A stretch of 64,000 nt of DNA, taken from Candidatus Nanopelagicales bacterium (GTDB lineage: Bacteria; Actinomycetota; Actinomycetes; S36-B12). A program made the translations under genes and the position numbers. The stretch covers positions 135,576 to 199,575 of the forward strand of contig JBIHZX010000001.1 in assembly GCA_044240195.1 (NCBI GenBank), written 5' to 3'. Positions 2,508-51,727 of the stretch are shown piece after piece. Position 1 is the first letter of the stretch, and every line of letters begins with the position of its first letter. The notes below the pieces were generated by a model, which did no database searches, had not been told where the DNA came from, and saw nothing but the letters and a program-made list of their open reading frames with translations.

Positions 2508-2514
2508 AAGAAAC

Positions 2515-3717: not shown

Positions 3718-3740
3718 GGGTCAATACTGTCAGATCCGAA

Positions 3741-4223: not shown

Positions 4224-4267
4224 CTGAGAATTCTCGTTGACAGAAGCCTGCCACCCAAGTTTGATAG

Positions 4268-9297: not shown

Positions 9298-9319
9298 CGT
9301 TTTTACTCCTTGAGTGCGA

Positions 9320-9538: not shown

Positions 9539-9541
9539 GGT

Positions 9542-10852: not shown

Positions 10853-10882
10853 GTCTCAACAATAAGGCGTTGAAATGCAGGA

Positions 10883-37901: not shown

Positions 37902-38932
37902 TTTTGCTCAGCAATACTGGAAAGATGTCGCGCCTTCAATTGCGTTTCCTCCCACTCAGTTTGTGGATTCGAACCCCACGTGATTCCCGCTCCCGTTCCA
38001 AACTTAAGCAACCCAGAATCAACCCAGAAAGTTCTAATGGCGACGGCGAGGCGTGCGGTTTTTTTATCTGCATCGATCCACCCAAACGCCCCGCAATAGG
38101 GGCCGCGATCCTCAGGTTCAAGTGAATCAATAATGTCAAGGGCAGCGATTTTTGGTGCCCCGGCAATTGAACCGGGCGGAAACGTTGCCTCAATAATTTT
38201 TGACCATTCGAAGTGCTGTGATACTTCTCCCTGTACCGTTGAAACAAGATGTACCAATCCCGGGTGCTGTTGGACTTCGAGTAGGTCAACAGCCTTAACG
38301 CTTCCAACATCACAGCACCGCGAAAGATCGTTGCGAACTAAATCGACGATCATGATGTTCTCCGCGCGATCCTTGTCCAACAACCCGCTGGCGCTTACAG
38401 CGGTTCCCTTGATGGGCTTTGACACCAACCGTGCACCCTCCCTAGAGAGGTAAAGTTCAGGGCTCGCGCAAGCAATGTGAACTCCCACCTCGGCGATGCG
38501 TAGTGCGCCCGCAAAAGGCGCATAATTCCCGCCGGCGAGTAGTGCATCGAGTGCCATAATGTCTGAGTGTGGATCACACACATTGCTTCTGATCCGACAA
38601 ATATTGACTTGATATACGTTTCCTCGTGAAATCGCGCTTCGAGTGGTTTCAACGGCCTTCTCATACAATTCTTGATCCATTGACGTGGTCCACGTTGAAC
38701 TATCAACACCTAACCAAGAACCAATCGTTGCTTCCCGAGGCTCACTCTCCCACGATGCAAAGCGGGCGAAGACTGGTTCTCCCGAAAAGGGAATCATTAC
38801 TGCCCAACGACCGCCACCTTGGATTGACTCGATGTCGTGGCTGAGTTCAGCCAGGTCATAGGCGTATTCGTCCCCAAATCGAGCCATTGGTATCGCGGTT
38901 GCGCCCAAATTCGGTGCACCTGGCTCGTTCAT
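37886..38932 (-). CDS. pabB: Aminodeoxychorismate synthase component I (chorismate-binding enzyme)
   Basis: It has the chorismate-binding C-terminal motifs GAPKIAALDIIDSLEPEDRGPYCGAFGWI and GAGITWGSNPQTEWEE. The start is set at the ATG at 38932, because the track ORF runs into tRNA-Gly. Confidence 0.8.
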   Translation of the reverse strand: MNEPGAPNLGATAIPMARFGDEYAYDLAELSHDIESIQGGGRWAVMIPFSGEPVFARFASWESEPREATIGSWLGVDSSTWTTSMDQELYEKAVETTRSAISRGNVYQVNICRIRSNVCDPHSDIMALDALLAGGNYAPFAGALRIAEVGVHIACASPELYLSREGARLVSKPIKGTAVSASGLLDKDRAENIMIVDLVRNDLSRCCDVGSVKAVDLLEVQQHPGLVHLVSTVQGEVSQHFEWSKIIEATFPPGSIAGAPKIAALDIIDSLEPEDRGPYCGAFGWIDADKKTARLAVAIRTFWVDSGLLKFGTGAGITWGSNPQTEWEETQLKARHLSSIAEQNWNPS

Positions 38933-39034
38933 GACGATAGCCTGCCCGGGTCCTCTAGAGCCCTCCGCTTTGGGCCTGTCATTCGTAATCAGATAGTGTT
39001 TGATCTCGCTTGTTGGGCACATGCCCGTGAGTGT

Positions 39035-39107
39035 GCGGACGTAGCGCAGCTGGTAGCGCATCACCTTGCCAAGGTGAGGGTCGCGGGTTCGAATCCCGTC
39101 GTCCGCT
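39035..39107 (+). tRNA. tRNA-Gly (anticodon GCC)
   Basis: 73-nt cloverleaf: GCGGACG acceptor, anticodon arm TCACC-TTGCCAA-GGTGA, T arm GCGGG-TTCGAAT-CCCGT. Confidence 0.9.
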
Positions 39108-39138
39108 CGAAGGGTTAGCGAGTATCACAAACCCGTCT

Positions 39139-39209
39139 GGTGGAGTGGCCGAGAGGCGAGGCAACGGCCTGCAAAGCCGTGTACACGGGTTCAAATCCCG
39201 TCTCCACCT
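39139..39209 (+). tRNA. tRNA-Cys (anticodon GCA)
   Basis: 71-nt cloverleaf: GGTGGAG acceptor, anticodon arm ACGGC-CTGCAAA-GCCGT, T arm ACGGG-TTCAAAT-CCCGT. Confidence 0.9.
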
Positions 39210-39247
39210 CTCACAAGCAAGACCACAACTGAATTCACCACCGCAAC

Positions 39248-39320
39248 GGGCGATTGGCGCAGGGGTTAGCGCGCTTCCTTGACATGGAAGAGGTCACAGG
39301 TTCGATTCCTGTATCGCCCA
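39248..39320 (+). tRNA. tRNA-Val (anticodon GAC)
   Basis: 73-nt cloverleaf: GGGCGAT acceptor, anticodon arm CTTCC-TTGACAT-GGAAG, T arm ACAGG-TTCGATT-CCTGT. Confidence 0.9.
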
Positions 39321-39325
39321 CTTAC
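39301..39325 (+). repeat. attL-like direct repeat (T-loop to 3' end of tRNA-Val(GAC) plus 5 nt)
   Basis: ttcgattcctgtatcgcccacttac matches 49929-49953 at 23 of 25 positions in direct orientation. Confidence 0.65.
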
Positions 39326-39690
39326 AGCCAGCCTTGAGGCACCGCTGGGGCCTAAAATCCTCCCATAGTCGTGTGCGTAATAATTGCGCTTGATTAAACC
39401 CCGGCTATTCGCAATCCAAAAGCTTTCAATAGGTTGTACCGAATACTGGAATTCTTCCAGATTAGAAATGAAACTTCTTAGGCTGGGTCTCACAGGGGAG
39501 TCGAGGCTATTGAACCGCGCTCTCTCGAGTTAAGCAACCAACGGCAGCACAAAATTGAACTAAACATCCTCGGGATCCATACAGACGCGTAAGGTCCTTG
39601 CATCGCTTCCATAGCAACCCATGGCAATTGAAGTAGAACAAACAAGGGACTAACCAAAGATTCAGTTTGGCTCATTGCGATATCAAAAAG

Positions 39691-39699
39691 TGACATAAT
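39691..39699 (+). promoter_or_regulatory. Candidate extended -10 element (tgaCATAAT) for a leaderless PucR-family regulator transcript
   Basis: A TGn + CATAAT element ends 6 nt before the GTG start at 39706. There is no Shine-Dalgarno sequence upstream of that start. Confidence 0.3.
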
Positions 39700-39705
39700 G
39701 CATTT

Positions 39706-40926
39706 GTGTCAAGTAGCGCATTCCATGACGAACCCGCGCTTGAAACTCATGAATTTCAACGTGATATTTTCGCCTTTGCTAACCACCTTGCATGGCACGT
39801 GGGCGGGCCGATAACTATTGAAGACCCATCTTGGCGAATAATTGCCTACTCAACGATCCATCAACGCATCGATGAGGCACGCCGCCGCACGATTCTCAGT
39901 CACGAAGTCCCTAAGGAATATCAAACTCTCCTCGATCAACATGGCGTTGCTAAGAGATTTCTGGCCGGAGACAATGCCGTGGAGATTCCGGCAGACTCTG
40001 ATCTGGCTTTCGCCCGACGAATAGCAGTCCCAGTAAGAATTCAAGGCGTTGTCGTCGGATCAATCTGGGTGGCGGAGTCCAACAACGATCTCAGTCCGGA
40101 CGCTACTGAGTTTCTCCAGGCGGCCTCCGGGCCTGCAAGTTACTTCTTCCGAGTTGAAAGCCACGCCCGTCAGAGAGAGTCGGAAGTATTTCTTAAGATG
40201 CTGGTCGACGGGACTGATGACAACATCTTCCTTGCAGAATATTTCGGTTTCAACTCAAAATCCAGCACACGCGTCCTCGCTGTTTGGCATGGCGGAGACT
40301 TGGGTCTTCGCGATCAATTAATCCACATCGCAGAGGTCGCTAGTCGGGAAGTCGGAATAGACACGCTATCGCTAACCCAAGGCAAAACCGCGTACTTCGT
40401 TGCCTACATGATGCACGCTAAAGATGACTTCGAGGAGTGCACGGAAAAAGTTGCATCTAGGCTGTCAAGTGTTGCAGAAAATCTAGTTGTGGGCCTTGGA
40501 GTCACCGTGTCCCAAGTGCAAGACATCCCGAGATCGAGACAAGAGGCGGATCTTGTCGTTACCTACCTCAGGCACCAATCCAAGGAACGTGTCGCGAGCA
40601 TGGACTCAGTTCGCACCGGAGTCACTCTGATGCTCGTTGCCGAAGTCTTGCGCAATCAATTGAAACCTATGCTTGGTCTGCAGGCATTTTCTAATTTGGG
40701 GGCAGCTGACCGCGAAGAAGTATTAAGTACCTTAGATCTGTTTTTTGAGCACATGGGTAACGCTGCCGAAGCGGCCCGGCGATTACACCTTCATCCAAAC
40801 TCATTTCGCTATCGACTGAACAAGATCTCGGACATTCTCAATGTCGATCTAAGCGACAGGAAGACACGACAGTTACTGGAACTACAAATACTTCTCGAAG
40901 CCTACTCAGACCTAAGTGATGGATGA
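39706..40926 (+). CDS. PucR-family transcriptional regulator
   Basis: 406 aa. The C-terminal PucR-type HTH reads AAEAARRLHLHPNSFRYRLNKISDIL, and the N-terminal part looks like a GAF-like sensor domain. Confidence 0.8.
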   Translation: MSSSAFHDEPALETHEFQRDIFAFANHLAWHVGGPITIEDPSWRIIAYSTIHQRIDEARRRTILSHEVPKEYQTLLDQHGVAKRFLAGDNAVEIPADSDLAFARRIAVPVRIQGVVVGSIWVAESNNDLSPDATEFLQAASGPASYFFRVESHARQRESEVFLKMLVDGTDDNIFLAEYFGFNSKSSTRVLAVWHGGDLGLRDQLIHIAEVASREVGIDTLSLTQGKTAYFVAYMMHAKDDFEECTEKVASRLSSVAENLVVGLGVTVSQVQDIPRSRQEADLVVTYLRHQSKERVASMDSVRTGVTLMLVAEVLRNQLKPMLGLQAFSNLGAADREEVLSTLDLFFEHMGNAAEAARRLHLHPNSFRYRLNKISDILNVDLSDRKTRQLLELQILLEAYSDLSDG

Positions 40927-42030
40927 CCTCGTAATAGTGAGCCGGGAACGCTCCCTTTCTCGGAGTACTTCCGGTATTACATCTACACCTATTCCAGGGC
41001 CCTGCGGGACGCGTAGATAGCCGTCCTCAAGGACAAAGGGGGCAGTTAGGTCCTCGTGAAAGTAACGAGCTGAAGCGGAAGTGTCATTAGGAAGAGAGAA
41101 CCCAGGTAAGCCTGCTAGGGCAATGTTTGCCGCCCGGCCTACCCCCGTCTCAAGCATCCCCCCGCACCATACTGGAATGCTTCGTTCCTGACAGACATCG
41201 TGTATGCGACGAGACTCGAGATACCCCCCAACGCGTCCTGGCTTAATGTTCACTATGGAACACGCCCCGCGTTCAATGGCGTTCAGGGCAACCTGAGCAG
41301 AAGTTATCGACTCGTCAAGGCAGATGGGAGTGGTTGTCATACTGGCCAACCTCATGTGTTGCTCGAGATCATCTTCAGGATACGGCTGCTCAATCATTAA
41401 AAGATTGAACTGCTCTAAAAGGAGAAGCCTGTTCGTTGTTGTTTCGTCGTAAGCCGTATTGGCATCGACACTGAGAAGTAGGTCGCTCCCGAATTCTTCG
41501 CGTACGGATCTCACCGGTTCCAGATCCCAATTAGGGCGAATCTTCAACTTAATTCGGCGGTAACCTTCTTCAATGTATCCACGAACCTCCTCCATAAGTA
41601 CCGGAACCGATTGGGCAATCCCCACTGAAACTCCGCAAGCCACTTTCTCCCTAGTAGCACCGAGGAAAGCTCCGAGAGAAATGCCTTCAGCCCGCAGGTA
41701 GGCATCGATCACAGCTGTCTCCACGGCAGCCTTTGCCATACGATGGCCAACAATTCCTGCAAACACTCTGCCCAACTCATGCACGTTGACTTCATCCAAC
41801 CGCAGGACCAAGGGGGCTAGGTAGCGTTCGATGACAATCTGGGCACTATCAACAAATTCATTCGTATAGAACGGATCTGCGAGCGCCACACACTCTGCCC
41901 ATCCAACACTGGTCGCTGTACGTACTCGCACAAGAAGGACCTGACGCACGGATTGCGTGCCAAATGAGGTCGTGAAAGCTCGCACCAATGGCATCTCGAC
42001 ACGGATCAATGAAATCTCATCGACTCTCAT
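40912..42030 (-). CDS. Enolase-superfamily N-succinylamino acid racemase / o-succinylbenzoate synthase family protein
   Basis: 372 aa. It resembles, from memory, Amycolatopsis N-acylamino acid racemase. Motifs are KxK RIKLKI, VDAN, IEQP, LDES, NIKPGRVGG and VWCGGMLETGVGRAAN. Confidence 0.9.
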   Translation of the reverse strand: MRVDEISLIRVEMPLVRAFTTSFGTQSVRQVLLVRVRTATSVGWAECVALADPFYTNEFVDSAQIVIERYLAPLVLRLDEVNVHELGRVFAGIVGHRMAKAAVETAVIDAYLRAEGISLGAFLGATREKVACGVSVGIAQSVPVLMEEVRGYIEEGYRRIKLKIRPNWDLEPVRSVREEFGSDLLLSVDANTAYDETTTNRLLLLEQFNLLMIEQPYPEDDLEQHMRLASMTTTPICLDESITSAQVALNAIERGACSIVNIKPGRVGGYLESRRIHDVCQERSIPVWCGGMLETGVGRAANIALAGLPGFSLPNDTSASARYFHEDLTAPFVLEDGYLRVPQGPGIGVDVIPEVLRERERSRLTITRSSIT

Positions 42031-42803
42031 GACCCAAGATCCCCATGATTAGTAAACACGTACACTCCTTCATCCCATAATGGTCGATGACCCTTAGCGA
42101 ATTCCACGGCAAACACATCGCGAATGCGAATCCTCAACTCAAGAGCCTCGGCCATGTTGGAGGCGCGAAGGCCTTCTATATCTGGAGGGATCTCTATTCT
42201 CGTATTCCTTCTATCTTTTTGGCCGTCAAGATCGTGGTCTATGCCTACCTCACCATTCAATTGCCAAGAGACTTCGAATCGATCCGTTCGATCCCCCGCG
42301 TTGATCTTGTCATCCATTCCTAGGTAAAAATCGGGGTGAAAAGCAACAACGCGAGCGCCTAACTTGATCAAGTTGAAATAGGCGTTGCGTGCTACCAGCG
42401 GGTCGTAGGTCCAGCGGATTTCAGTCACTCCATGTTCAAGGCAAAGTGCCCGCTGGGCGAGCTTCAAAGCGTATCCCACACCCGAAGAGGCGACCCCCGG
42501 TGAAACTGCCGTCATGTGGGAATGGAGGTGCAAACTACCCGCCCATCCCATGTACCCAAATGCAAATCCGACTGCTACCCCAGATTTTCGTGCAAGTAGT
42601 AAAGAATTTCCCGCATGTGCAATTCCTCTTAGTAAGTTGGAGGGACTAACTTGATCGGGTCCCCATACCTGATCTATTAGCATCTCAATCTCTCTTACAT
42701 CCGTCCCGTTTAGATTGTCTATAACAACCCCGGCACGAGCGCTGGCCGACAACGATTCTTCACGCGCAGCTGACACATGCGACTCATTCACAGCATGAAT
42801 CAT
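42027..42803 (-). CDS. GNAT-superfamily acyltransferase (COG3375-like)
   Basis: The start is set at the ATG at 42803 (MIHAVNES...), in an ATGA overlap with the deacylase stop. The acyl-CoA loop reads SSGVGYALKLAQR. The stop is in an ATGA overlap with the racemase start. Confidence 0.7.
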   Translation of the reverse strand: MIHAVNESHVSAAREESLSASARAGVVIDNLNGTDVREIEMLIDQVWGPDQVSPSNLLRGIAHAGNSLLLARKSGVAVGFAFGYMGWAGSLHLHSHMTAVSPGVASSGVGYALKLAQRALCLEHGVTEIRWTYDPLVARNAYFNLIKLGARVVAFHPDFYLGMDDKINAGDRTDRFEVSWQLNGEVGIDHDLDGQKDRRNTRIEIPPDIEGLRASNMAEALELRIRIRDVFAVEFAKGHRPLWDEGVYVFTNHGDLGS

Positions 42804-44389
42804 GTCGAATTCCTCACTAACCTGCGCCCCCTTCGGGCACCTGCATATGATCCGGCGACCACAACCTCGGACCCGTTCAGCATCACCCACGGAATACCCG
42901 TCGGGGTTTGCACAGGATTCTCAAATGTCGCCGTATCTTGCACCCCCCTCTGATCGAAAGCGACAAGGTCAGCTTTCATGCCAGCTGCGATCCTGCCGCG
43001 ATCGTGTAAACCAAAGGTGTCTGCGGGCAGAGAGGTCATTCGGCGAACTGCCTCTTCCATCGATAGAACTCCTAGCTCTCTTGCAAAACGTCCAAGAATC
43101 CGTGGGAAAGTCCCATAAAGTCTGGGGTGGGGTTTGCCCCCCGTACCAGGCGGCAAACCATCGGAACCAATCATTGTTTGCGGATGACTTAGGGCCGTCG
43201 TTACATCGGCTTCACTCATCTGGTGAACGGTCATCGTTGCCTGAAGCTCCTCGTCAATTAGCACCATGCATAGGGCCGCGCAGGGCTCAATGTCATATTC
43301 GATGGCAATCTCTGCCAAGGATTGCCCCTCAAATCTGTGGTCGCCAGTACTCGCGACCACAATGCCCTCCCACCCGGCGCCCATCACCATATTTTCCCAC
43401 TCAAGACTTATTACTGAGAGACTCTCTTCGAGTTCGCGTATTGCCTGAGCATCACGAAGTCGTCGCAAAACGCCTTCGTTTCCACCTTCCTGAAACCATG
43501 GAGGAAGGCAGGCCGTCAGCATTGTGCTTCCCGCGGTGTAGGGATAAATATCCTGGCGAACATCAACTCCACGTGCACGAGCACTATCGATCAAGTCCAA
43601 GGCCTCCTGCATCCTCCCCCAGTTATAGCGACCCGCGACCTTCAAATGGGAAATCTGTACCCGTCGCCCAGTGGCCTCTCCAACAGCGAGTGCTTCTTCG
43701 ATGCTTTGAAAAACTTGCGCCCCCTCTCCACGCATATGCGTCGCGTAGAGGATGCCCGAGGGAAGTCGCCCTACGAGTTTGGATATCTCCGTATGGCCCG
43801 CAAAAACACCGGGTGGATAAATCAGGCCTGTTGACATGCCGAAGATTCCAGCGTCAACCGACTCATCTAACGCCCTACCCATGGCAGATTCCTCACCCAG
43901 TGAGGGATTACGATTTTCCATGCCCATGGCCAGAATGCGAAGCGTGTGATGACCAACCATCGGCGCGTAGTTGGTCACGTAGCCGCGCATATCTAGTGCT
44001 TCAAAAAAATCGCCCATTGATGTCCAGCCCCAGTCCAAGGGCGGAAAGATTCGAGTGGCATATTCCCGCATAATATCCTCGTGCTGATATTGAAGAGGAG
44101 CCAAACTAAACCCACAGTTACCGACAACCTCTGTAGTGACACCTTGCATTATTTTAGAGACGTCGTCTTCATCCAAAAGTGGAGCGTTGTCAGCGTGTGA
44201 ATGAACGTCAATAAATCCCGGCGCAACAACGAGTCCGGTTAAATCAATTGGAGAGCAGTCTCCGGGTATTCCAGCACCATCGGGGATGACTGCCTCGATC
44301 AAATCCCCATCCAAGATCAAAGTGCCCTTGCGCGCTGAGTCTCCTGATCCGTCTGCAATTAAGGCATTAAGTATCGCTATTCGTGTCAT
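42800..44389 (-). CDS. N-acyl-D-amino-acid deacylase (D-aminoacylase) family amidohydrolase
   Basis: 529 aa. It has the metal motif GFIDVHSHAD and VVGNCGFS, whose Cys matches the Cys ligand of characterised D-aminoacylases. Confidence 0.85.
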   Translation of the reverse strand: MTRIAILNALIADGSGDSARKGTLILDGDLIEAVIPDGAGIPGDCSPIDLTGLVVAPGFIDVHSHADNAPLLDEDDVSKIMQGVTTEVVGNCGFSLAPLQYQHEDIMREYATRIFPPLDWGWTSMGDFFEALDMRGYVTNYAPMVGHHTLRILAMGMENRNPSLGEESAMGRALDESVDAGIFGMSTGLIYPPGVFAGHTEISKLVGRLPSGILYATHMRGEGAQVFQSIEEALAVGEATGRRVQISHLKVAGRYNWGRMQEALDLIDSARARGVDVRQDIYPYTAGSTMLTACLPPWFQEGGNEGVLRRLRDAQAIRELEESLSVISLEWENMVMGAGWEGIVVASTGDHRFEGQSLAEIAIEYDIEPCAALCMVLIDEELQATMTVHQMSEADVTTALSHPQTMIGSDGLPPGTGGKPHPRLYGTFPRILGRFARELGVLSMEEAVRRMTSLPADTFGLHDRGRIAAGMKADLVAFDQRGVQDTATFENPVQTPTGIPWVMLNGSEVVVAGSYAGARRGRRLVRNST

Positions 44390-44400
44390 ATTTGACTCTC

Positions 44401-45300
44401 TCAGGCTCGTGAAATGGGATTAACGACAGGGCAATCGCCCATGGATTCAGGCCACCAGGCGCGTAGAATCGCCCTACCTATTAATCCATTCGCAACATCG
44501 CCTTCCGATTCGGTAAGGAAAGTAAGGTCACTTCCTTCATGGTTCGCTACGCAGTAAGTGAATCCGCCCTGCCCGGGGAATCGAATAATCCCTGCATCGA
44601 CTCTGGTGCCCAAGAAGAATCCAGTCTTGTTGGCCACCATGATTTCCGGAATTTGACCGAGCTCTCTCCAATAAGGGGTGACGCGCATATACCTTGGAAA
44701 CTGGTTGAGATACTGCTGCTGTTCCAAGATTGACTCCATCTCTTCGCACAGCCTTGCATCGACAATAGACCGAAGAGCGATCATTTCCATCAAGGTGCGG
44801 AGGTCTCTTGGGCTCGCCACGCCAAGCCTTCGAATATCATCGCCGATTGCCTCGAAATCGATTCGGTTGTTGAGTCGAACTGTTGCTAGACCCAAGCCGT
44901 CCATTGCTGCATTGACAGTCGCAACGTCGCCCCCAAAGGCATCCAGCACCATGTTGGTCGCGGTGTTGTCGCTGAGCACCACCATTAGGGTTGCAACATC
45001 ACGAACAGTTGGCTCCAGGCCTGATTCAAAAACCTTGAGTATTCCCGATCCACCACGTTTATCAGAATCCTCAAGGGTCAATCGAGAATCCAGTGAGACC
45101 TTACCCAAAGCGGCTAATTCATAAAGTGCAACCAATATTGGGACCTTGATTACGCTTGCCATGGGAAAAACTAAATCAGAATCAATGTCTACCTCCTGCA
45201 TCCCGCTCAGACTCCGAGCAGAAACTGCCATGATTCCTGAGAACTCTCCAATAATTTCGTTAAGTTCGTTTTCCAGCTCACGGGTCATTGCGTACTCCAT
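44401..45300 (-). CDS. Class A beta-lactamase-fold serine hydrolase, no signal peptide
   Basis: 299 aa. It has SxxK (ASVIKV), SDN (LSDNTATN) and KTG (ANKTGF). The N-terminus MEYAMTRELENELNEIIGEF is acidic and not secretory. Confidence 0.8.
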   Translation of the reverse strand: MEYAMTRELENELNEIIGEFSGIMAVSARSLSGMQEVDIDSDLVFPMASVIKVPILVALYELAALGKVSLDSRLTLEDSDKRGGSGILKVFESGLEPTVRDVATLMVVLSDNTATNMVLDAFGGDVATVNAAMDGLGLATVRLNNRIDFEAIGDDIRRLGVASPRDLRTLMEMIALRSIVDARLCEEMESILEQQQYLNQFPRYMRVTPYWRELGQIPEIMVANKTGFFLGTRVDAGIIRFPGQGGFTYCVANHEGSDLTFLTESEGDVANGLIGRAILRAWWPESMGDCPVVNPISRA

Positions 45301-45340
45301 ATTCCAAGTGCATAAACAGTGAATGAATTTGGCTGGGCGT

Positions 45341-45381
45341 GCGGCTGACCCTGATAAAGCGAATCAATCAAGGTCAGCCGC
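45341..45381 (-). other. Intercistronic stem-loop (10-bp perfect stem) between the transporter and enzyme genes
   Basis: gcggctgacc...(21 nt)...ggtcagccgc. No U-tract follows on the transcribed strand. Confidence 0.45.
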
Positions 45382-45407
45382 AACAACTAATCTTTACGGC
45401 CTAATTG

Positions 45408-46613
45408 CTATAGCCCTTCGACGTTGCCTACAACTTGAAGGAAGCCTCCTTTAGAAAGCCATTCATTGTCAGGAACCAGCGCAGGAAGCAACTTGGGCTT
45501 AGTGCTTCCAACGTCGTAATAGTTACCAACGGTGTCCTTGCTCAACACCTGTTGCGGGAACGGGGTCACTTTGACAGTAGGAGTGACACCCAACGCACGG
45601 GCTTGAGCTGCTGCAATTGCATATTGCCCCCAGTAGGAGATGAAAATATCTCCTTCAGCGACCCAACGAGGATCATCGCGAAGTGCATTTAGTCCGCCTT
45701 CGTCACCGCCCAAGCCGCCCACAAGCGTATCGTCATCTCCACCACGGCCGGCATCTTCCATAGCTCGTAGAGCGCCCATGGTTGAGTCGTTATTGACCGT
45801 GTACAAAATGATGTTATTGCCTTCGGGAATACTTGGAATAATATTCTTCACAGCATCAAAACTTGGCTGCAACGTTGACTGTCCATCAAATTGGATCGCA
45901 TTGGCTCCAATCTTTGTAGTCTTTGGAGTAATGGTTGTTGGATCCACCTCTTCCATTCCTAGCATCGGTGCAATCGTCGTGTAAAAGTAGCGGACACAGT
46001 CATTGACCTGCTCGCCGGCCGCTGCGTTCTGACCTATGAGGATCGTTGTGTTGGATGCGTTCCATCCACGATCCTTCGCAATGGCACCAATGATATTCGC
46101 CGACTCTTCGCCAAGTTTCCGATTATCGATATTGAGGAAAGTGCATTCAGCGACGTCTAGATTCATGGCAACGCAAGGGATTCCGCTCTCTCCTAGCATT
46201 TTTCCGACACCCTTGGTCGCTGTCGAGACCGGGTAAATAACGATAGCTGCAGGATTGTCCGCGATCTGGAGTTGAACATTTTCCAGCATCTTTGCTGGAT
46301 CTCCCGCATTGTCGTACCACTTGACTTCCACACCCGTGGCATTGTCCGCAATTTGTTGGTCCAGATTCTTGTGAATTACCTGGAAAAGCGGCGCCGCCTC
46401 CGTATAGATCGACATACTCACGTTGAACGGGTCTGGCAATTGTGCTGTAGCAGCAGTCGGAGACTCCACTGGGGCACTCGACTCAGTGGTGACGTCGGCG
46501 CTGCTGGAAGCAGCGGAAGTGGTTTCCCCTCCTGAGTTTCCGCCACAGGCAGTCACTGTCAGAGCACTCACAGCGATTAGTACACCTAGTTCAATAATCC
46601 TATTTTTTTTCAT
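45408..46613 (-). CDS. ABC transporter substrate-binding lipoprotein (type I periplasmic binding protein, sugar/RbsB-like)
   Basis: 401 aa. A lipobox (LTVTAC) is followed by a Ser/Thr/Ala-rich linker and a PBP type I fold pattern. The RBS is GGTGAGGTGA. Confidence 0.85.
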   Translation of the reverse strand: MKKNRIIELGVLIAVSALTVTACGGNSGGETTSAASSSADVTTESSAPVESPTAATAQLPDPFNVSMSIYTEAAPLFQVIHKNLDQQIADNATGVEVKWYDNAGDPAKMLENVQLQIADNPAAIVIYPVSTATKGVGKMLGESGIPCVAMNLDVAECTFLNIDNRKLGEESANIIGAIAKDRGWNASNTTILIGQNAAAGEQVNDCVRYFYTTIAPMLGMEEVDPTTITPKTTKIGANAIQFDGQSTLQPSFDAVKNIIPSIPEGNNIILYTVNNDSTMGALRAMEDAGRGGDDDTLVGGLGGDEGGLNALRDDPRWVAEGDIFISYWGQYAIAAAQARALGVTPTVKVTPFPQQVLSKDTVGNYYDVGSTKPKLLPALVPDNEWLSKGGFLQVVGNVEGL

Positions 46614-46676
46614 TCACCTCACCTGACCTTCCTTGAATAATCTGTCGGATCCGTTGTTAGAACCGACCTTAATTGG

Positions 46677-47669
46677 CTACACCTTCTTCAGTACTTTCTT
46701 TGTTCTTCGAAACTGACTCAATAACACCGCAATAAGTAAGACAACGCCCGTGGCCATTGTTTGGTAGAAAGAGGGAATGCTCAGCATCGCCATCCCATTG
46801 GACAGAACCCCAAGGAGTAGAACACCCACCAGTGTGCCCGAGACGACACCGACGCCACCTGTCAATGCAGCACCCCCAAGAATGACTGCAGCGATTGATT
46901 GAAGAGCTGAATTGATTCCTGCGGTACCGGAACCTGTAAGCAACTGGCTCGCGAGGATCGCTCCAGCCAGTCCAGCTAACGCTGCTGAAGTCAGATATAC
47001 GGCAAGCGTCACCATATTGACCGGGATGCCAGCGAGTCGCGCCGCTTCGCGATTTCCACCCACCGCATAAAGAGAACGCCCGAAGATCGTATATCTCAAC
47101 ACGAGTGAGGTAACTAGGCAAAGGCCCAAAAACACCCAAATCTGATTGTTCAAACCAAAAATTGATCGACTCGTCAGAATTCCGTCATCGGCATTAACGA
47201 ATGGGATCTGAATTCCACCCGATAAAGTTAGGGCAAGCCCGCCAGATAAATACCAAGTGCCGAGCGTGGCAATGAGCGGGCTTACCTTGGTGTAACCAAC
47301 GAGAACACCATTAATCAATCCGAAAATCCCCGTCGATGCCATTGCCACCAACAACGCCAATGGCATCGTCCACCCAGAATTTAACAGCATTGCAAAAATA
47401 ACTCCGCCCAGCGGTACGGTCCCACTCACTGAAAGGTCAAAGCCCCCAGAGACAATGACTAGCAGCTGGCCCAGAGAAATAACTCCGATAACCGCCGAGT
47501 TTGCAAGTACATTCGTGAGGTTATTAGGCGATATCGATGAACCACCAGTCTGCCACCAAAAAACGCAGATGAGAAGCAAAAGGAATACCAGCAGCATGAG
47601 CGCGCGTCCATTAGTCTCACTCACGACAAACTTATTCTTGGGAATTTCAACTTTAGCGGACTCAATCAT
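46677..47669 (-). CDS. ABC transporter permease (RbsC/CUT2 type)
   Basis: The start is set at the ATG at 47669, 14 nt after the ATPase stop. It is polytopic with the RbsC-like pattern. The track ORF (to 47768) would overlap the ATPase by 86 nt. Confidence 0.85.
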   Translation of the reverse strand: MIESAKVEIPKNKFVVSETNGRALMLLVFLLLLICVFWWQTGGSSISPNNLTNVLANSAVIGVISLGQLLVIVSGGFDLSVSGTVPLGGVIFAMLLNSGWTMPLALLVAMASTGIFGLINGVLVGYTKVSPLIATLGTWYLSGGLALTLSGGIQIPFVNADDGILTSRSIFGLNNQIWVFLGLCLVTSLVLRYTIFGRSLYAVGGNREAARLAGIPVNMVTLAVYLTSAALAGLAGAILASQLLTGSGTAGINSALQSIAAVILGGAALTGGVGVVSGTLVGVLLLGVLSNGMAMLSIPSFYQTMATGVVLLIAVLLSQFRRTKKVLKKV

Positions 47670-47682
47670 CTGCGTGTGCCTT

Positions 47683-49200
47683 TCATAGTAATCCCCCAGC
47701 GGCTTGTAGGGCTTCGACCTGCGAGTCTTCGGTCGGGTTGCAAATTTCATGCACGATTCTTCCCTCACGGAAGATTAGGAGTCGGTCACAAATTGTTACT
47801 GCTTCCTCAATATCTGAGGTCACTACAAGTTGACCGGTACCAGCATCTGCCATTTGGCGCAGGATGTTGTGAAGTTCCACCCGGGCGCCAACGTCAACAC
47901 CACGCGTCGGTTCATGCAGAACGAGCGCAGCAGGTGCCAAGGCAATGCGACTGCCCATCAGCACCTTTTGCTGATTTCCACCAGAGAGTTCAGACACCGC
48001 TTGATTCAGACTCCTGGAACGGAGCAGAGTGACCTTAGCGAGAGTGCGCGCCAGCTCATCCTCTTTCTTCAGGCGCAAAAAACCGAGCCTTGCTAGAGAC
48101 CGCATGACCAATAATGAATATGAGGATTTCACACTCATGATAGAGATGAGCCCTTGAATCTTTCGATCAGCAGGCATGTAGCCGATGGACGCCTTTAATG
48201 CGTCACGAGGTGATTTAGGGACGGGAACTGATCTACCCGCAACCGTAAGGCCGCCACGAACACTCGAGTGCAAACCCCCAAGTGTTTCAGCGAGTGTCCC
48301 AGCCCCGGAGCCCGAAAGTCCATAAACTCCAACAATCTCATTTTTGCCAACAGTAAGAGATATGCCTCGAAGTTGTGGATAATCATCGCGCACCAAAGAC
48401 AACACTTCCAAAATCGGCACGTCTGTAGCTACAGTTGCTGAACTCACTTGCCGTACAGTTTCCTCCCGCCCGAGAATGTGGCTAATTACTTCTGACGGTC
48501 TCGTATCCGAAACGCTTCCCGAAAAAACTAGAGAGCCATTGCGAAGAACCTGCACATGGGAGCAGGCCCGGAATACCTCATCGAGTCGATGAGAGATATA
48601 GACGATTGATGTGCCACTAGCGGCTACACTCTGCATGAGGTCGAGGAGACGCTCACTTTGATCACTATTAAGTGCAGCCGTTGGTTCATCGAGTATGATC
48701 AATTTAGAGCGTCGAGACATCGCTTTCACTATCTCTACAGCCTGCTGGTCGGCAAAACTCAGCGAATACATTTCCGCCCTCATAGGCAAGTCAAATCCCA
48801 GACGCGCAGACTCTTCCGCAGAAGACCTGAGTATTCGTTTGTTCGTAGTCATGAACCCTGAACGCGGCCATCGCCCCAAGCAAATATTCTCAGCGACTGT
48901 CATGCGAGGAACGTAGATCAATTCTTGTGGAATGAGCGAAAACCCATTTATCAATGCCTCTCGAGGAGAGTCAAACCGCAGGCGATCCTCGCCAATGAAA
49001 ATCTCTCCACTATCAGGTTCAACTGCGCCGGCCAAGATCTTGGCTAGAGTTGATTTTCCTGCACCGTTTTCGCCTAGTAAAGCCGTAATCTGGCCGGGCA
49101 ATAAGGAGAAACTCACTTCGTTAAGAACGCTCTGTCCACCATATGACTTGCTCAACTGCCGAAGTTCGATAGGGGGTCTCATGAGCTGGTTATCGTTCAC
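47683..49200 (-). CDS. ABC transporter ATP-binding protein, duplicated ATPase domains (RbsA/CUT2 type)
   Basis: 505 aa. It has a first Walker A GENGAGKST, LSGGNQQK-type signatures and a degenerate second P-loop GLSGSGAGT. The GTG start lies behind GGGGGAGG. Confidence 0.9.
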   Translation of the reverse strand: MNDNQLMRPPIELRQLSKSYGGQSVLNEVSFSLLPGQITALLGENGAGKSTLAKILAGAVEPDSGEIFIGEDRLRFDSPREALINGFSLIPQELIYVPRMTVAENICLGRWPRSGFMTTNKRILRSSAEESARLGFDLPMRAEMYSLSFADQQAVEIVKAMSRRSKLIILDEPTAALNSDQSERLLDLMQSVAASGTSIVYISHRLDEVFRACSHVQVLRNGSLVFSGSVSDTRPSEVISHILGREETVRQVSSATVATDVPILEVLSLVRDDYPQLRGISLTVGKNEIVGVYGLSGSGAGTLAETLGGLHSSVRGGLTVAGRSVPVPKSPRDALKASIGYMPADRKIQGLISIMSVKSSYSLLVMRSLARLGFLRLKKEDELARTLAKVTLLRSRSLNQAVSELSGGNQQKVLMGSRIALAPAALVLHEPTRGVDVGARVELHNILRQMADAGTGQLVVTSDIEEAVTICDRLLIFREGRIVHEICNPTEDSQVEALQAAGGLL

Positions 49201-49928
49201 GGCACCTCCCCCTTGAAGCTATTGATTGGAAATTAGCACTGAGACGACCAGTTGTCTATGTTGCAAACTCCAAATTATCCGATACAAAAATTGCACAAGC
49301 CCCAGACAGAGGACGTCTGCTGACTCAGCTTTAACTTCAAGTCAATTCAATTATGATCACGATTCGATAGTTGACTCCTCTTCAACCGCCCCTACGTTTG
49401 CTAATCCACAGAGTGAAGCAGTGTTCCGATCACCCCCAACTTGCGCAGCCACTTGTCGACACGGAGCATCGGCACCTCGAACCCGTGACCATCGATAGCG
49501 TTTGAGCACTTGAGTTCTGGGTATTGAATGTTCTTGCTCAATGAAACCAGCTGAGTCAACCAGATGCGAGTTGCCGCTGCCGTGGCCCAATCACGCCTAA
49601 AGTTCCCCCAAGTTCATTCGCCTCAAAAAGTTGAGACAGCTTCATTCAGCAAGTGGGCGGGGCTACCTCCTATCTGGCTGGGCTGATTCAGGTAAGGGTC
49701 ACAGGGAACTCCAGCATCGAGCAGCGTTACAAGAAGGAAAGTGCAATTTTTGGGTTATCATCGCGCCGCAACGGTATCGCTGTGGCGACCGCCGGAGTGC
49801 ATTTCGGGGCGCTTGTACTGTAGGGGCGTTCCAACCTTTCCAGCACTGGACAGATCGGCTCATTTTCCGTCATTAAACGCTCACAACAAGGGGAAAAACT
49901 TCCAACATAAATAATAACGGAATACATT
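49201..49928. other. 728-nt stretch with no convincing ORF at the distal end of the island (operon promoter region and possible gene debris)
   Basis: All six frames are broken by stops. Only 60-90-aa ORFs with atypical composition are present. Confidence 0.4.
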
Positions 49929-49953
49929 TTCGAATCCTGTATCGCTCACTTAC
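49929..49953 (+). repeat. attR-like displaced tRNA-Val 3' fragment
   Basis: ttcgaatcctgtatcgctcacttac. It has no D arm or anticodon arm upstream, so it is not a tRNA gene. It matches 39301-39325 at 23 of 25 positions. Confidence 0.65.
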
Positions 49954-50071
49954 CTGAGTTTCCCTGAAACGGATGATGCCTCGGAGTACATTGAATCCCT
50001 TTAGTCTTCTCCTGTGGCAAGCCCCACAGTCATGCGGCACCGATCTGGAAGCCGCGGTTCACCGGTGACTG

Positions 50072-50326
50072 TCATTGCTCGCGCTCTGGTAAAGCATGTG
50101 TAGAGGGCTTTGCTTCAGGCATCATCCATTCCTGAGTCTTGGTCAAATAGGGGTCATTCACATAAGCGTCATAGAGTGAATGCGCTTCTTCATACAGTTG
50201 AGAATCATAGGGGCTGGCTGCGATCCGTTCGAGGAGTTCATCGGCATGCTTCGCCTGAGCCACCGCGCCATTTCTTTGAACTTCACGCAGCTGGTTCACG
50301 GGATCCACAGCCAAAGTCTTCCACAC
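50072..50326 (-). CDS. Hypothetical small protein (weak call)
   Basis: 84-aa ORF with ordinary composition. It has no well-spaced RBS and no motif I recognise. Confidence 0.3.
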   Translation of the reverse strand: MWKTLAVDPVNQLREVQRNGAVAQAKHADELLERIAASPYDSQLYEEAHSLYDAYVNDPYLTKTQEWMMPEAKPSTHALPEREQ

Positions 50327-50390
50327 CTTTCAAACATAGTGATCTACCTCCGATCGGTCGTGTCTGGCCTGATCTGCTTTCCAGTACTCT

Positions 50391-51488: not shown

Positions 51489-51723
51489 AGGCAGCCGCCA
51501 CGATTGCAACCAGAATGGTCGCAATCAGGATTTGGGTTCCGAAGGTGAGCCAGAAACCCCATTGCGCCGCATTGCCGATCAGCGCCCCTCCCGCTCCACC
51601 GACGACACCGATTAAAACCGTGACGAAACACCCAATGGGCTGCATGCTCGGTACCAAGATTCGAGCAATAAGGCCGATAACTATTCCAACAAAGAGGCCG
51701 CTGATGAGGCCGGAAATTTCCAT
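51472..51723 (-). CDS. GlsB/YeaQ/YmgE family (transglycosylase-associated) small membrane protein
   Basis: The start is set at the ATG at 51723 (MEISGLISGLFVGIVIGLIARILVP...). It has three Gly-rich TM helices. Confidence 0.75.
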   Translation of the reverse strand: MEISGLISGLFVGIVIGLIARILVPSMQPIGCFVTVLIGVVGGAGGALIGNAAQWGFWLTFGTQILIATILVAIVAAAFRKGT

Positions 51724-51727
51724 AGCC

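What the first reader, a model, noticed from the sequence alone, without database searches (positions are those of the whole stretch)
40912..49200. Candidate new pathway: sugar-type ABC importer fused to beta-lactamase-fold hydrolase, D-aminoacylase, GNAT and NSAR-type racemase
Seven co-directional minus-strand genes run from 49200 down to 40912. They are an RbsA-like ATPase, an RbsC-like permease and a lipoprotein SBP, then a stem-loop. Next come a cytosolic class A beta-lactamase-fold serine hydrolase, a D-aminoacylase-family amidohydrolase, a COG3375-like GNAT and an NSAR/OSBS-type enolase. The last three are joined by ATGA start/stop overlaps, which implies translational coupling. The pathway I recall as characterised, from Geobacillus kaustophilus, combines a GNAT succinyltransferase, NSAR and an L-specific desuccinylase for irreversible D-to-L amino-acid conversion. 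Here the hydrolase partner belongs to the D-specific deacylase family. A penicillin-recognising-fold enzyme and a CUT2 (ribose-type) importer are added, all next to a PucR-family regulator. I know of no characterised system with this composition. My working hypothesis is uptake and stereochemical recycling of D-amino-acid-containing or N-acylated compounds, for example peptidoglycan- or DOM-derived ones.
Basis: inference. Interest (0 to 1): 0.8.

Follow-up and report, generated by a model that had tools for sequence, protein, structure and literature searches.

The report
D-amino-acid uptake and stereoinversion operon
This is a real seven-gene operon, conserved in Actinobacteria, that most likely imports a small compound containing a D-amino acid, frees the D-amino acid and converts it to the usable L-form; it is an untested extension of a known pathway, not a wholly new one.

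Summary
All seven minus-strand genes, the hairpin, both ATGA overlaps and the PucR-family regulator are present as described.

- **Racemase:** 56% identical, without gaps, to Amycolatopsis N-succinylamino-acid racemase (NSAR), with every catalytic residue kept.
- **Acyltransferase (GNAT):** same family as the one paired with NSAR in Lysinibacillus, Bacillus, Deinococcus and Sulfitobacter.
- **Conservation:** among 80 genomes carrying this GNAT, 52 have NSAR beside it. Twenty also have the M20 deacylase of the known D-to-L pathway. Ten have the D-aminoacylase and beta-lactamase-fold genes upstream.
fuller relatives (Kribbella, Pseudonocardia, Geodermatophilus, Modestobacter) encode both the D-aminoacylase and M20. 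The D-aminoacylase is therefore an added front-end enzyme, not a substitute for M20. The window's clade has lost M20.
- **D-amino-acid theme:** elsewhere the transporter and hydrolase genes sit beside other D-amino-acid enzymes. A Bacillus plasmid joins NSAR, GNAT and M20 to a peptide importer and a related class-A-like hydrolase.

Best reading: uptake, release and stereoinversion of D-amino acids. The transported ligand and the missing final deacylase are unknown. No paper describing the extended cluster was found. I rate it a new variant of a known kind, of moderate interest.

The parts
47683..49200 (-). Fused double-domain ABC ATPase of the CUT2 (ribose/arabinose) type. GTG start with a GGGGGAGG Shine-Dalgarno sequence 5 nt upstream.
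   Evidence: Two ABC_tran domains. Best NCBIfam matches are AraG and RbsA, all far below the equivalog cut-offs. 57-65% identical orthologues sit in the same position in L006, L010, L013, L019, L022, L031, L092 and L093.
46677..47669 (-). Single CUT2-type permease (BPD_transp_2), 330 aa from the ATG at 47669.
   Evidence: Pfam and NCBIfam: AraH E 2e-60, RbsC E 5e-48, both below cut-off. Public gene calls on identical metagenome contigs give 330 aa.
45408..46613 (-). Lipoprotein substrate-binding protein with the ribose-binding-protein fold. It belongs to a narrow, strongly conserved family whose ligand is unknown.
   Evidence: - Signal peptide plus LTAC lipobox, read from the sequence.
- Peripla_BP_4, 52 bits.
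- Only one weak PDB sequence hit.
- AlphaFold2 pLDDT 88.9. Foldseek's top hits are RbsB-type proteins at 14-20% identity.
- Only 118 homologues were found, most 55-79% identical.
45340..45382 (-). 16-bp hairpin in the SBP to hydrolase spacer, with no U tract. It is probably an mRNA-stabilising or partial-termination element that favours SBP expression.
   Evidence: MFE -41.6 kcal/mol for the 121-nt spacer region, z -3.1, and 0 of 200 shuffles fold as well. It is not conserved as a spacer: in Kribbella the SBP stop and hydrolase start are 4 nt apart.
44401..45300 (-). Cytosolic class-A-beta-lactamase-related serine hydrolase, PBP-A-like. Predicted to be a D-stereospecific peptidase, amidase or esterase.
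   Evidence: - Beta-lactamase2, E 8e-52.
- The NCBIfam class A model scores 71.8 against a cut-off of 200.
- SVIK, SDN and KTG motifs are present. The Glu166 position is Ile, aligned with Leu158 of PBP-A.
- No signal peptide.
- 28% identity, E 2e-33, to the class-A-related hydrolase in the Bacillus sp. F19 NSAR cluster.
42800..44389 (-). N-acyl-D-amino-acid deacylase (D-aminoacylase) family amidohydrolase.
   Evidence: - PDB: 1m7j E 1.8e-83; N-acyl-D-Glu deacylase 3gip E 7e-74; OngB 9kb1 E 2e-63.
- The HxH, GNCG Cys, THMR His, ISHLK His, GSDG Asp and YPY motifs all align.
42027..42803 (-). GNAT-fold acyl-CoA:amino-acid N-acyltransferase. It belongs to the family that is paired with NSAR across phyla. 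Its start overlaps the D-aminoacylase stop (ATGA).
   Evidence: - No Pfam, NCBIfam or PDB sequence hit.
- 2083 homologues, named 'predicted GNAT superfamily acetyltransferase' by JGI.
- AlphaFold2 pLDDT 80. Foldseek probability 1.0 to GNATs, including the amino-acid N-acetyltransferases ArsN, YncA and PAT.
- 30% identity, E 1e-22, to the GNAT of the Lysinibacillus M20-GNAT-NSAR operon.
40912..42030 (-). N-succinylamino-acid racemase (NSAR/OSBS subfamily, enolase superfamily). Its start overlaps the GNAT stop (ATGA).
   Evidence: - 56% identical over 362 residues, without a gap, to Amycolatopsis NSAR 1sja (E 6e-132).
- K161/K163, D189, E214, D239, K263, R266, F19, F23 and Y55 are all conserved.
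- TIGR01928 scores above its cut-off.
39706..40926 (+). PucR-family transcription regulator, convergent with the operon, with a 15-bp overlap of the 3' ends.
   Evidence: - HTH_30 plus GGDEF_2 domains.
- The N-terminal part resembles AdeR, E 6e-27, below cut-off.
- A PucR-family gene is kept next to NSAR or GNAT in L006, L009, L010, L011, L013, L016, L019, L022, L031, L037, L088, L093 and S. rimosus.

Best explanation
The locus is a salvage and catabolic operon for exogenous compounds that contain a D-amino acid. The proposed steps are as follows.

1. The lipoprotein SBP and the CUT2-type ABC importer take up a small polar conjugate of a D-amino acid. This could be a short D-peptide, an N-acyl-D-amino acid, or a D-aminoacyl ester or amide. 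Its exact identity is unknown.
2. Two D-directed hydrolases free the D-amino acid in the cytoplasm. The PBP-A-like serine hydrolase would cut a D-aminoacyl (D-D peptide, ester or amide) bond. The D-aminoacylase would cut an acyl-D-Xaa or L-Xaa-D-Xaa bond.
3. The GNAT N-acylates the free D-amino acid, with succinyl-CoA by analogy with Geobacillus.
4. NSAR racemises the N-acyl-D-amino acid to the L form.
5. An L-specific deacylase releases the L-amino acid. In most relatives this is the M20 enzyme encoded between GNAT and NSAR. In the window's clade it must be encoded elsewhere or be replaced.

The PucR-family protein is the likely regulator. The hairpin after the SBP gene probably raises SBP output relative to the enzymes.

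**What is shown:** gene identities, intact catalytic residues, predicted folds, and conserved linkage.

**What is inferred:** every substrate, the acyl donor, the direction of flux, single-transcript organisation, and regulation.
For: 1. **Enzymes look active.** NSAR keeps all catalytic and specificity residues, including R266. The D-aminoacylase keeps all metal ligands and the catalytic Asp. The hydrolase keeps SxxK, SDN and KTG but lacks Glu166, like the DD-peptidase PBP-A (PMC11189452).
2. **GNAT and NSAR are coupled.** They are adjacent in 52 of the 80 genomes carrying this GNAT, and M20 lies between them in 20. The same GNAT family is paired with NSAR in Lysinibacillus, Bacillus, Deinococcus (including D. 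radiodurans MP1), Sulfitobacter and Streptomyces. This composition matches the characterised D-to-L pathway (bioRxiv 10.1101/2022.03.03.481873; PMC12006748).
3. **The full set is conserved.** The order ABC-hydrolase-DAA-GNAT-M20-NSAR with PucR is kept in Kribbella, Pseudonocardia, Geodermatophilus, Modestobacter and MAGs. In Herbiconiux the same genes are arranged as two convergent units.
4. **The core repeatedly sits next to uptake systems of different classes.** These are a polar amino-acid ABC importer (Sulfitobacter) or its binding protein (Deinococcus), an Opp-type peptide ABC importer (Bacillus sp. F19) and a peptide MFS transporter (Lysinibacillus). It also sits next to D-peptide-type hydrolases: an M19 dipeptidase plus a PF00144 serine hydrolase in S. 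rimosus, and an S9 peptidase, a beta-lactamase-family protein and a class-A-related hydrolase (E 2e-33 to the window's) in Bacillus.
5. **The transporter-hydrolase module also sits next to other D-amino-acid enzymes.** L089 has a D-amino-acid-transaminase-like gene, D-Glu cyclase and 5-oxoprolinase. L092 has a PLP enzyme like D-Thr aldolase or D-Ser dehydratase.
6. **No sugar genes.** No sugar kinase, isomerase, dehydratase or aldolase accompanies the SBP family in the roughly 15 contexts inspected.
Against: - The transporter is of the monosaccharide (CUT2) type. The SBP has a ribose-binding-protein fold with many conserved Asn, Asp, Gln and Trp residues, which does not suggest a peptide or acyl-amino-acid ligand.
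- The window and its nearest relatives lack the L-deacylase, so the pathway as written is incomplete here.
- If the D-aminoacylase accepted the GNAT product, the two enzymes would form a futile cycle.
- GNAT survives without NSAR in L012 and L013, and NSAR survives without GNAT in L092.
- There is no biochemical or expression evidence of any kind.
- Known NSARs prefer hydrophobic side chains. The L089 context points to D-Glu instead.
Confidence: 0.55

Rival explanations
1. The operon catabolises a sugar-amino-acid or oxidised amino sugar, for example N-acetyl-D-glucosaminate from oxidised chitin. The CUT2 importer takes up a sugar acid or its lactone or lactam. The beta-lactamase-fold enzyme opens the ring. 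The D-aminoacylase-family enzyme removes the N-acetyl group, as OngB does.
For: - The SBP has a ribose-binding-protein fold and sugar-like conserved polar and aromatic residues.
- The D-aminoacylase family includes the carbohydrate de-N-acetylase OngB (9kb1, E 1.8e-63; PMC9537276).
Against: - The window enzyme is closer to classical D-aminoacylases (E 1.8e-83) than to OngB.
- No deaminase, sugar kinase, dehydratase or aldolase occurs in any variant of the cluster.
- This reading gives no role to GNAT, NSAR and M20, which are the most consistently linked genes.
Confidence: 0.12
2. In the clade without M20, flux runs the other way, as a natural dynamic kinetic resolution. N-acyl-L-amino acids, either imported or made by the GNAT, are racemised by NSAR. 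The D-aminoacylase pulls the equilibrium towards free D-amino acids for the cell wall or a secondary metabolite.
For: - The window, L093, the GCA_041445565 contig and L092 keep NSAR and the D-aminoacylase but have no M20.
- NSAR plus D-acylase is the industrial route to D-amino acids (PMC12149444).
Against: - The ancestral-looking clusters carry both deacylases.
- The link to importers and to D-amino-acid-degrading enzymes points to catabolism.
- Sulfitobacter also lacks M20, yet pairs NSAR and GNAT with an amino-acid importer.
- No biosynthetic consumer of D-amino acids lies nearby.
Confidence: 0.12
3. The neighbours are unrelated. The ABC system is an ordinary sugar importer, the enolase is the menaquinone OSBS (menC) as public annotation says, and the other genes are adjacent only by chance.
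For: Public annotations call these genes 'ribose transport system' components and 'o-succinylbenzoate synthase'. NSAR/OSBS enzymes usually retain OSBS activity (PMC12006748).
Against: - The same gene set recurs across genera and in rearranged form.
- Gaps between genes are 4 nt or overlapping.
- There are no men genes in the 64-kb window.
- Amycolatopsis-type NSARs are regarded as biological racemases (PMC12006748).
Confidence: 0.04
4. The operon takes up and degrades beta-lactams or other lactam antibiotics. The beta-lactamase-fold enzyme opens the ring and the amidohydrolase removes the side chain.
For: The protein has the class A beta-lactamase fold with SxxK, SDN and KTG motifs. An amidase lies next to it.
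Against: - There is no Glu166 equivalent and no signal peptide.
- It scores 71.8 bits against the 200-bit cut-off of the class A model.
- Penicilloic acids are not N-acyl-D-amino acids (my own knowledge).
- This reading gives no role to GNAT and NSAR.
Confidence: 0.03

Closest known systems
[quoted passage not shown] 2006, as summarised in bioRxiv 10.1101/2022.03.03.481873 and PMC12006748)
   Same: - The NSAR/OSBS-subfamily racemase has all catalytic residues.
- A GNAT is translationally coupled to it, and it is homologous to the GNAT of the Lysinibacillus and Bacillus M20-GNAT-NSAR operons.
- Most actinobacterial relatives also have the M20 gene between the two.
   Different: - The window has no M20 anywhere in its 64 kb.
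- The operon adds an importer, a class-A-like serine hydrolase and a D-aminoacylase upstream.
- The M20 of the relatives is carboxypeptidase-G2-like.
- The acyl donor and the amino-acid specificity are untested.
Amycolatopsis N-acylamino-acid racemase / NSAR (PDB 1sja)
   Same: 56% identity over 362 residues without a gap. K163, K263, D189, E214, D239 and R266 are conserved, as are the hydrophobic pocket residues F19, F23 and Y55.
   Different: M50 is Leu and I293 is Leu. Activity is not measured. The genomic context described here has not been reported for the Amycolatopsis enzyme in the papers I could read.
Alcaligenes faecalis D-aminoacylase (1m7j) and Bordetella N-acyl-D-glutamate deacylase (3gip)
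   Same: Same amidohydrolase subfamily. All metal-binding and catalytic residues and the YPY motif are conserved.
   Different: The window protein is about 45 residues longer, with a divergent insertion domain (residues about 293-379) that did not align. The side-chain specificity could therefore not be read.
PBP-A (Tll2115) of Thermosynechococcus, a DD-carboxy/endopeptidase closely related to class A beta-lactamases (PMC11189452)
   Same: Same fold and same SxxK, SDN and KTG motifs. Both have a hydrophobic residue in place of the beta-lactamase general base Glu166.
   Different: The relationship is distant (E 2e-19). The window protein has no signal peptide or membrane anchor, so it acts in the cytoplasm. 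It is closer to a Bacillus plasmid 'class A beta-lactamase-related serine hydrolase' encoded beside NSAR, GNAT and M20 (E 2e-33).
CUT2 monosaccharide ABC importers (RbsABC, AraFGH)
   Same: Fused double ATPase, a single BPD_transp_2 permease, and a Peripla_BP_4 SBP with the RbsB fold.
   Different: - All components score far below the equivalog cut-offs.
- The SBP is only 14-20% identical to solved sugar binders.
- The SBP family is always encoded next to amide hydrolases or amino-acid enzymes, never next to sugar-catabolic genes.
DgcN/DgcA D-glutamate catabolism: N-acetylation followed by racemisation of N-acetyl-D-Glu (recalled from memory; NCBIfam NF042940 names DgcA)
   Same: The same logic of acylate, racemise, then deacylate, using an enolase-superfamily racemase.
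   Different: The window racemase scores only 83.8 bits against the 400-bit DgcA cut-off, so it is not a DgcA orthologue.

Membership tests
NSAR/OSBS subfamily (enolase superfamily, MLE subgroup) | KxK motif (K161/K163), metal ligands D189/E214/D239, second catalytic Lys K263, and Arg266, the NSAR specificity determinant | tested here: met
   Gap-free alignment to 1sja; all residues are identical. TIGR01928 scores 297.6 bits against a cut-off of 200.65.
NSAR/OSBS subfamily (enolase superfamily, MLE subgroup) | N-succinylamino-acid racemase activity as the biological function, rather than OSBS | not testable with these tools
   Context only: no men genes in the window, and the gene is paired with a GNAT as in the known NSAR operons.
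[quoted passage not shown] | A GNAT N-succinyltransferase encoded with NSAR | tested here: met
   - GNAT fold: AlphaFold2 pLDDT 80, Foldseek probability 1.0.
- Homologous to the GNATs of the Lysinibacillus and Bacillus M20-GNAT-NSAR operons (E 1e-22).
- ATGA overlap with NSAR.
- Use of succinyl-CoA is not testable here.
[quoted passage not shown] | An L-specific M20 desuccinylase encoded in the same cluster | tested here: not met
   tblastn with the Kribbella M20 finds nothing in the 64-kb window (best E 0.49). M20 is present in 20 of the 80 related genome loci.
N-acyl-D-amino-acid deacylase (amidohydrolase superfamily) | HxH, Cys96, His220 and His250 zinc ligands, catalytic Asp366, and the YPY ligand-binding motif | tested here: met
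   All align with 1m7j and 3gip. D-stereospecific activity is not testable here.
Class A beta-lactamase | SxxK, SDN and KTG motifs | tested here: met
   SVIK, SDN and KTG are seen in the alignments.
Class A beta-lactamase | Glu166 general base in the omega loop, secretion signal, and a score above the curated family cut-off | tested here: not met
   - The position aligned with PBP-A Leu158, which is the Glu166 equivalent, is Ile.
- There is no signal peptide: the N-terminus aligns from residue 9 with residue 3 of the Bacillus sp. F19 homologue, leaving no room for one in either protein.
- NF033103 scores 71.8 bits against a cut-off of 200.
CUT2 sugar ABC importer | Fused two-domain ATPase, single 10-TM-type BPD_transp_2 permease, and a Peripla_BP_4 SBP | tested here: met
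CUT2 sugar ABC importer | A monosaccharide as the transported ligand | tested here: inconclusive
   The fold and conserved residues look sugar-like. However, every conserved neighbour is an amide hydrolase or an amino-acid enzyme, and no equivalog cut-off is reached.
PucR-family regulator | C-terminal PucR HTH (HTH_30) with a GGDEF-like middle domain | tested here: met
   HTH_30 E 1.4e-17 and GGDEF_2 E 2.4e-08.

The most novel reading that the evidence does not exclude
A narrow family of ribose-binding-protein-fold SBPs with their CUT2 importers has been recruited in Actinobacteria to take up an as yet unidentified D-amino-acid conjugate, possibly a glyco-conjugate or an ester. A cytosolic PBP-A-like serine hydrolase would be the first catabolic enzyme. 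This would define a new substrate class for 'sugar' ABC importers, a first physiological role for cytosolic class-A-beta-lactamase relatives, and the natural source of the D-amino acids that feed the NSAR pathway. In the clade without M20, the route would end in a different, unknown way.
Probability: 0.3. Interest if true: 0.7.

Novelty: new variant of a known kind. Interest (0 to 1): 0.55.

Why it matters
- **Source of the substrate.** The biological role of NSAR-type racemases is known from one biochemically studied operon and otherwise only from gene context. Where their D-amino-acid substrates come from has not been settled. This operon, and the cross-phylum pattern found here, join the stereoinversion core to importers and to D-directed hydrolases. 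That gives a concrete, testable picture of how bacteria scavenge D-amino acids from peptidoglycan debris, nonribosomal peptides or dissolved organic matter.
- **Misleading annotations.** Three annotation classes are flagged as probably wrong here: 'ribose ABC transporter', 'beta-lactamase class A' and 'o-succinylbenzoate synthase'.
- **Enzymes of practical interest.** It supplies a natural NSAR plus D-aminoacylase pair, which is the enzyme couple used industrially to make D-amino acids.

Tried and rejected
- **M20 elsewhere in the window:** none found.
- **CN_hydrolase remnant:** I looked in the 1.2-kb gap at 49201-50390, because the nearest relatives carry such a gene on that side. None was found.
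- **Structured RNA:** the Rfam scan of 38000-52000 found only three tRNAs, so no riboswitch.
- **Promoter and terminator scans:** fewer hits than in shuffled sequence, so uninformative.
- **SBP ligand:** sequence search of the PDB gave one weak hit. The fold search gave only generic sugar binders at 14-20% identity, so the ligand could not be assigned.
- **D-aminoacylase specificity:** I tried to read it from the Bb3285 Arg295 position, but the insertion domain does not align.
- **Adjacent CoA-transferase:** I considered that it recycles succinyl-CoA, but it is not conserved in any relative, so it is left out of the system.
- **Microbacteriaceae contexts of the GNAT:** the neighbours are an MFS transporter, PAP2, a saccharopine-dehydrogenase-like protein, a DAO-like oxidase and Trk (by eye from the sequences). 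These gave no clear functional hint.
- **Organism:** cluster look-up gave no taxon names. From gene content it is an actinobacterium (PIM, WS/DGAT and housekeeping synteny) with about 52% GC.
- **Papers:** the two Odokonyero papers on NSAR genome context are not held.

Full report
**Observation**

| Gene | Coordinates | Main evidence |
|---|---|---|
| Fused double ABC ATPase | 47683-49200 | Two ABC_tran domains; AraG/RbsA-like |
| Permease | 46677-47669 | BPD_transp_2, AraH/RbsC-like |
| Lipoprotein SBP | 45408-46613 | Peripla_BP_4; LTAC lipobox |
| Beta-lactamase-fold hydrolase | 44401-45300 | Beta-lactamase2 fold, no signal peptide |
| D-aminoacylase-family amidohydrolase | 42800-44389 | E 1.8e-83 to 1m7j |
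| GNAT-like protein, 258 aa | 42027-42803 | No sequence-profile hit |
| NSAR/OSBS enolase | 40912-42030 | E 6e-132 to 1sja |

All transporter components score far below the NCBIfam equivalog cut-offs. I read both ATGA start/stop overlaps directly in the sequence. The spacer between the SBP gene and the hydrolase gene holds a 16-bp hairpin. The 121-nt spacer region folds at -41.6 kcal/mol with z -3.1, and there is no U tract after the stem. A PucR-family regulator gene (39706-40926) converges on the racemase gene with a 15-bp overlap.

**The individual proteins**

*Racemase.* It aligns with Amycolatopsis NSAR (1sja) over 362 residues without a gap, at 56% identity. K161/K163, D189, E214, D239 and K263 are kept, as is the specificity determinant R266 and the hydrophobic pocket residues F19, F23 and Y55. 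It is 43% identical to the D. radiodurans racemase gene product.

*D-aminoacylase-family protein.* It keeps the HxH, Cys, two His and Asp catalytic set and the YPY motif of 1m7j and 3gip.

*Beta-lactamase-fold protein.* It has the SVIK, SDN and KTG motifs. At the position of the general base Glu166 it has Ile, aligned with Leu158 of PBP-A. PBP-A is a DD-carboxy/endopeptidase (PMC11189452). The window protein has no signal peptide. It scores 71.8 bits against the 200-bit class A cut-off. So it is a cytosolic class-A-related serine hydrolase, not a beta-lactamase.

*GNAT-like protein.* It has no Pfam, NCBIfam or PDB sequence match but has 2083 homologues. An AlphaFold2 model (pLDDT 80) matches GNATs with probability 1.0. 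The matches include enzymes that acetylate amino-acid amino groups, namely ArsN, YncA and PAT.

*SBP.* The model is confident (pLDDT 88.9) and has the ribose-binding-protein fold, but at only 14-20% identity to any solved binder. The family is narrow, with 118 hits, and tightly conserved.

**Conservation**

I built an alignment of GNAT homologues and scanned one genome per species with it. It returned 318 relatives, of which the best 80 loci were analysed.

| Feature among the 80 loci | Count |
|---|---|
| NSAR just downstream of the GNAT | 52 |
| M20 peptidase between GNAT and NSAR | 20 |
| D-aminoacylase and hydrolase upstream | 10 |

- The full order ATPase-permease-SBP-hydrolase-DAA-GNAT-M20-NSAR, with a convergent PucR gene, occurs in Kribbella alba, Pseudonocardia aurantiaca, Geodermatophilus, Modestobacter and an Actinomycetota MAG (L010). 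Two contigs cut short on the transporter side, from an Actinomycetota MAG (L011) and a Euzebyaceae MAG (L007), carry the part from the hydrolase onwards.
- In Kribbella the SBP and hydrolase genes are 4 nt apart.
- In Herbiconiux daphne the same genes form two convergent units: PucR-ABC-hydrolase facing DAA-M20-GNAT-NSAR.
- The window itself has no M20 anywhere in its 64 kb.
- Its nearest relatives (proteins 55-79% identical, GNAT lowest: L093, a GCA_041445565 contig, and L092) share the M20-less layout.
- Two freshwater MAGs (L012, L013) have also lost NSAR. L092 has lost the GNAT and carries a frameshifted D-aminoacylase gene.
- Decayed remnants of the cluster occur in G. pulveris and P. acidicola.

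The D-aminoacylase does not replace the L-desuccinylase. Where the cluster is most complete, both are present. The D-aminoacylase belongs with the transporter and the serine hydrolase as an upstream module. GNAT-(M20)-NSAR is the known D-to-L conversion core, made of a GNAT succinyltransferase, NSAR and an M20 L-desuccinylase (bioRxiv 10.1101/2022.03.03.481873; PMC12006748). The latter paper notes that the Amycolatopsis mediterranei enzyme had already been annotated as an NSAR from its operon context.

**Cross-phylum evidence for function**

I searched annotated plasmids with the window GNAT. The same family lies next to 'menC' (NSAR) in each of the following.

| Organism | Neighbouring genes |
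|---|---|
| D. radiodurans MP1, D. ficus | Amino-acid-type SBP; also M20 in D. ficus only |
| Sulfitobacter | Complete polar amino-acid ABC importer, no M20 |
| Lysinibacillus | Peptide MFS transporter and M20 |
| Streptomyces rimosus | M19 dipeptidase, M20, PF00144 serine hydrolase, PucR-type regulator |
| Bacillus sp. F19 | Opp-type peptide ABC importer, M20, S9 peptidase, beta-lactamase-family protein, class A beta-lactamase-related serine hydrolase |

The class-A-related hydrolase in Bacillus sp. F19 is 28% identical (E 2e-33) to the window's hydrolase.

Distant members of the SBP family tell a similar story.

| Locus | Genes beside the SBP |
|---|---|
| L089 | Hydrolase, ABC, DAA, then a D-amino-acid-transaminase-like gene, D-Glu cyclase and 5-oxoprolinase |
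| L092 | A PLP enzyme like D-Thr aldolase or D-Ser dehydratase |
| L086, L091 | An M20 amidohydrolase, DUF1028 and L-serine dehydratase |
| L087 | The hydrolase alone |

None of these contexts contains a sugar kinase, isomerase or aldolase.

**Mechanism proposed (inferred)**

1. The ABC system imports a small D-amino-acid conjugate.
2. The PBP-A-like hydrolase and the D-aminoacylase release the D-amino acid.
3. The GNAT N-acylates it.
4. NSAR racemises the product.
5. An L-deacylase finishes the conversion. This is M20 in the relatives and is unknown in the window.

The conserved hydrophobic NSAR pocket suggests hydrophobic side chains, although the L089 context points to D-Glu for that variant.

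Three weak points remain:
- the sugar-type fold of the SBP;
- the missing deacylase in the window's clade;
- the need for the D-aminoacylase to reject the GNAT product, since otherwise the two would form a futile cycle.

**Rivals**

- Catabolism of a sugar-amino-acid, such as an OngB-type substrate (PMC9537276). It lacks any supporting sugar genes and gives GNAT and NSAR no role.
- An L-to-D route in the M20-less clade. It is not excluded, but it fits the importer and catabolic contexts less well.
- Chance adjacency with menC function. The conserved synteny contradicts it.
- Beta-lactam degradation. The missing Glu166 and the cytosolic location contradict it.

**Setting**

The window is otherwise a housekeeping actinobacterial region. 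On one side lie aro genes, alaS, aspS, hisS, relA, secDF, ruvABC, pdxS, PIM genes, thrS and pabBC. On the other lie der, cmk, tyrA, scpAB, parA, xerD, ald and pyrG. There are no men genes. Identical copies of the cluster occur on several JGI and Logan metagenome contigs. No taxon name was obtainable.

**Novelty and verdict**

I found no paper describing the extended cluster. Two key context papers could not be read. The core is known, and the association with importers and D-peptide-type hydrolases turns out to be a general pattern. The CUT2-type importer, the cytosolic class-A-like hydrolase and the M20-less form are the new elements. I rate it a new variant of a known kind, interest 0.55.

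Noticed in passing
window 49201-50390: A 1.2-kb stretch with no long ORF lies between the ATPase start and the divergent CoA-transferase gene. The closest relatives (L092, L093, a GCA_041445565 contig) carry a CN_hydrolase gene on that side instead. No remnant of it and no Rfam family was detected. Public gene calls place small ORFs of 84 and 56 aa there.
   Followed up: partly
window 50391-51488 (+): A family III CoA-transferase (CaiB/oxalate/succinate-glutarate type, below equivalog cut-offs) lies divergent to the operon. It could in principle regenerate succinyl-CoA from the succinate released. It is absent from every related locus, so it was not counted as part of the system.
   Followed up: partly
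window 39035-39321 (+): A cluster of tRNA-Gly(GCC), tRNA-Cys(GCA) and tRNA-Val(GAC) sits immediately beside the PucR gene. The operon lies between this and the der/cmk housekeeping block. It might be an insertion point, but there is no compositional break.
   Followed up: no
L089 724-15370: A distant variant (SBP 38% identical) has this order: unknown 456-aa protein, class-A-like hydrolase, ABC importer, D-aminoacylase-family enzyme. These are followed by a D-amino-acid-transaminase-like gene, two D-glutamate-cyclase-type genes and the 5-oxoprolinase genes PxpABC. It looks like a D-glutamate-directed version of the same front end.
   Followed up: partly
L086 6412-14335 and L091 790-8707: SBP-family relatives (45-49% identical) are encoded with a TIGR01891 M20 amidohydrolase, DUF1028, L-serine dehydratase and an HTH-cupin regulator. 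This may be an N-acyl-serine or Ser-conjugate uptake system that uses the same 'sugar-type' importer.
   Followed up: partly
L084 6548-10561; L016 7843-9805: Geodermatophilus pulveris and Pseudonocardia acidicola carry truncated fragments of the ATPase, SBP or hydrolase genes next to the GNAT. The front end is therefore decaying in some lineages.
   Followed up: partly
L098 (Bacillus sp. F19 plasmid) 1-12593: An eleven-gene cluster: Opp-type peptide ABC importer, NSAR, GNAT, M20 aminoacylase, S9 peptidase, beta-lactamase-family protein and class-A-related serine hydrolase. It is a Firmicute analogue of the window's operon and appears equally uncharacterised.
   Followed up: partly
window 60976-62091 (-) and 39706-40926 (+): An alanine dehydrogenase gene lies 20 kb from the operon. 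The N-terminal half of the PucR-family regulator resembles AdeR, the B. subtilis activator of ald (E 6e-27, below cut-off). No link between the two was tested.
   Followed up: no
window 31730-32794 (+): A 354-aa ORF with no Pfam match lies on the strand opposite to its neighbours (PIM-synthesis genes and thrS). It was not examined further and may not be a real gene.
   Followed up: no
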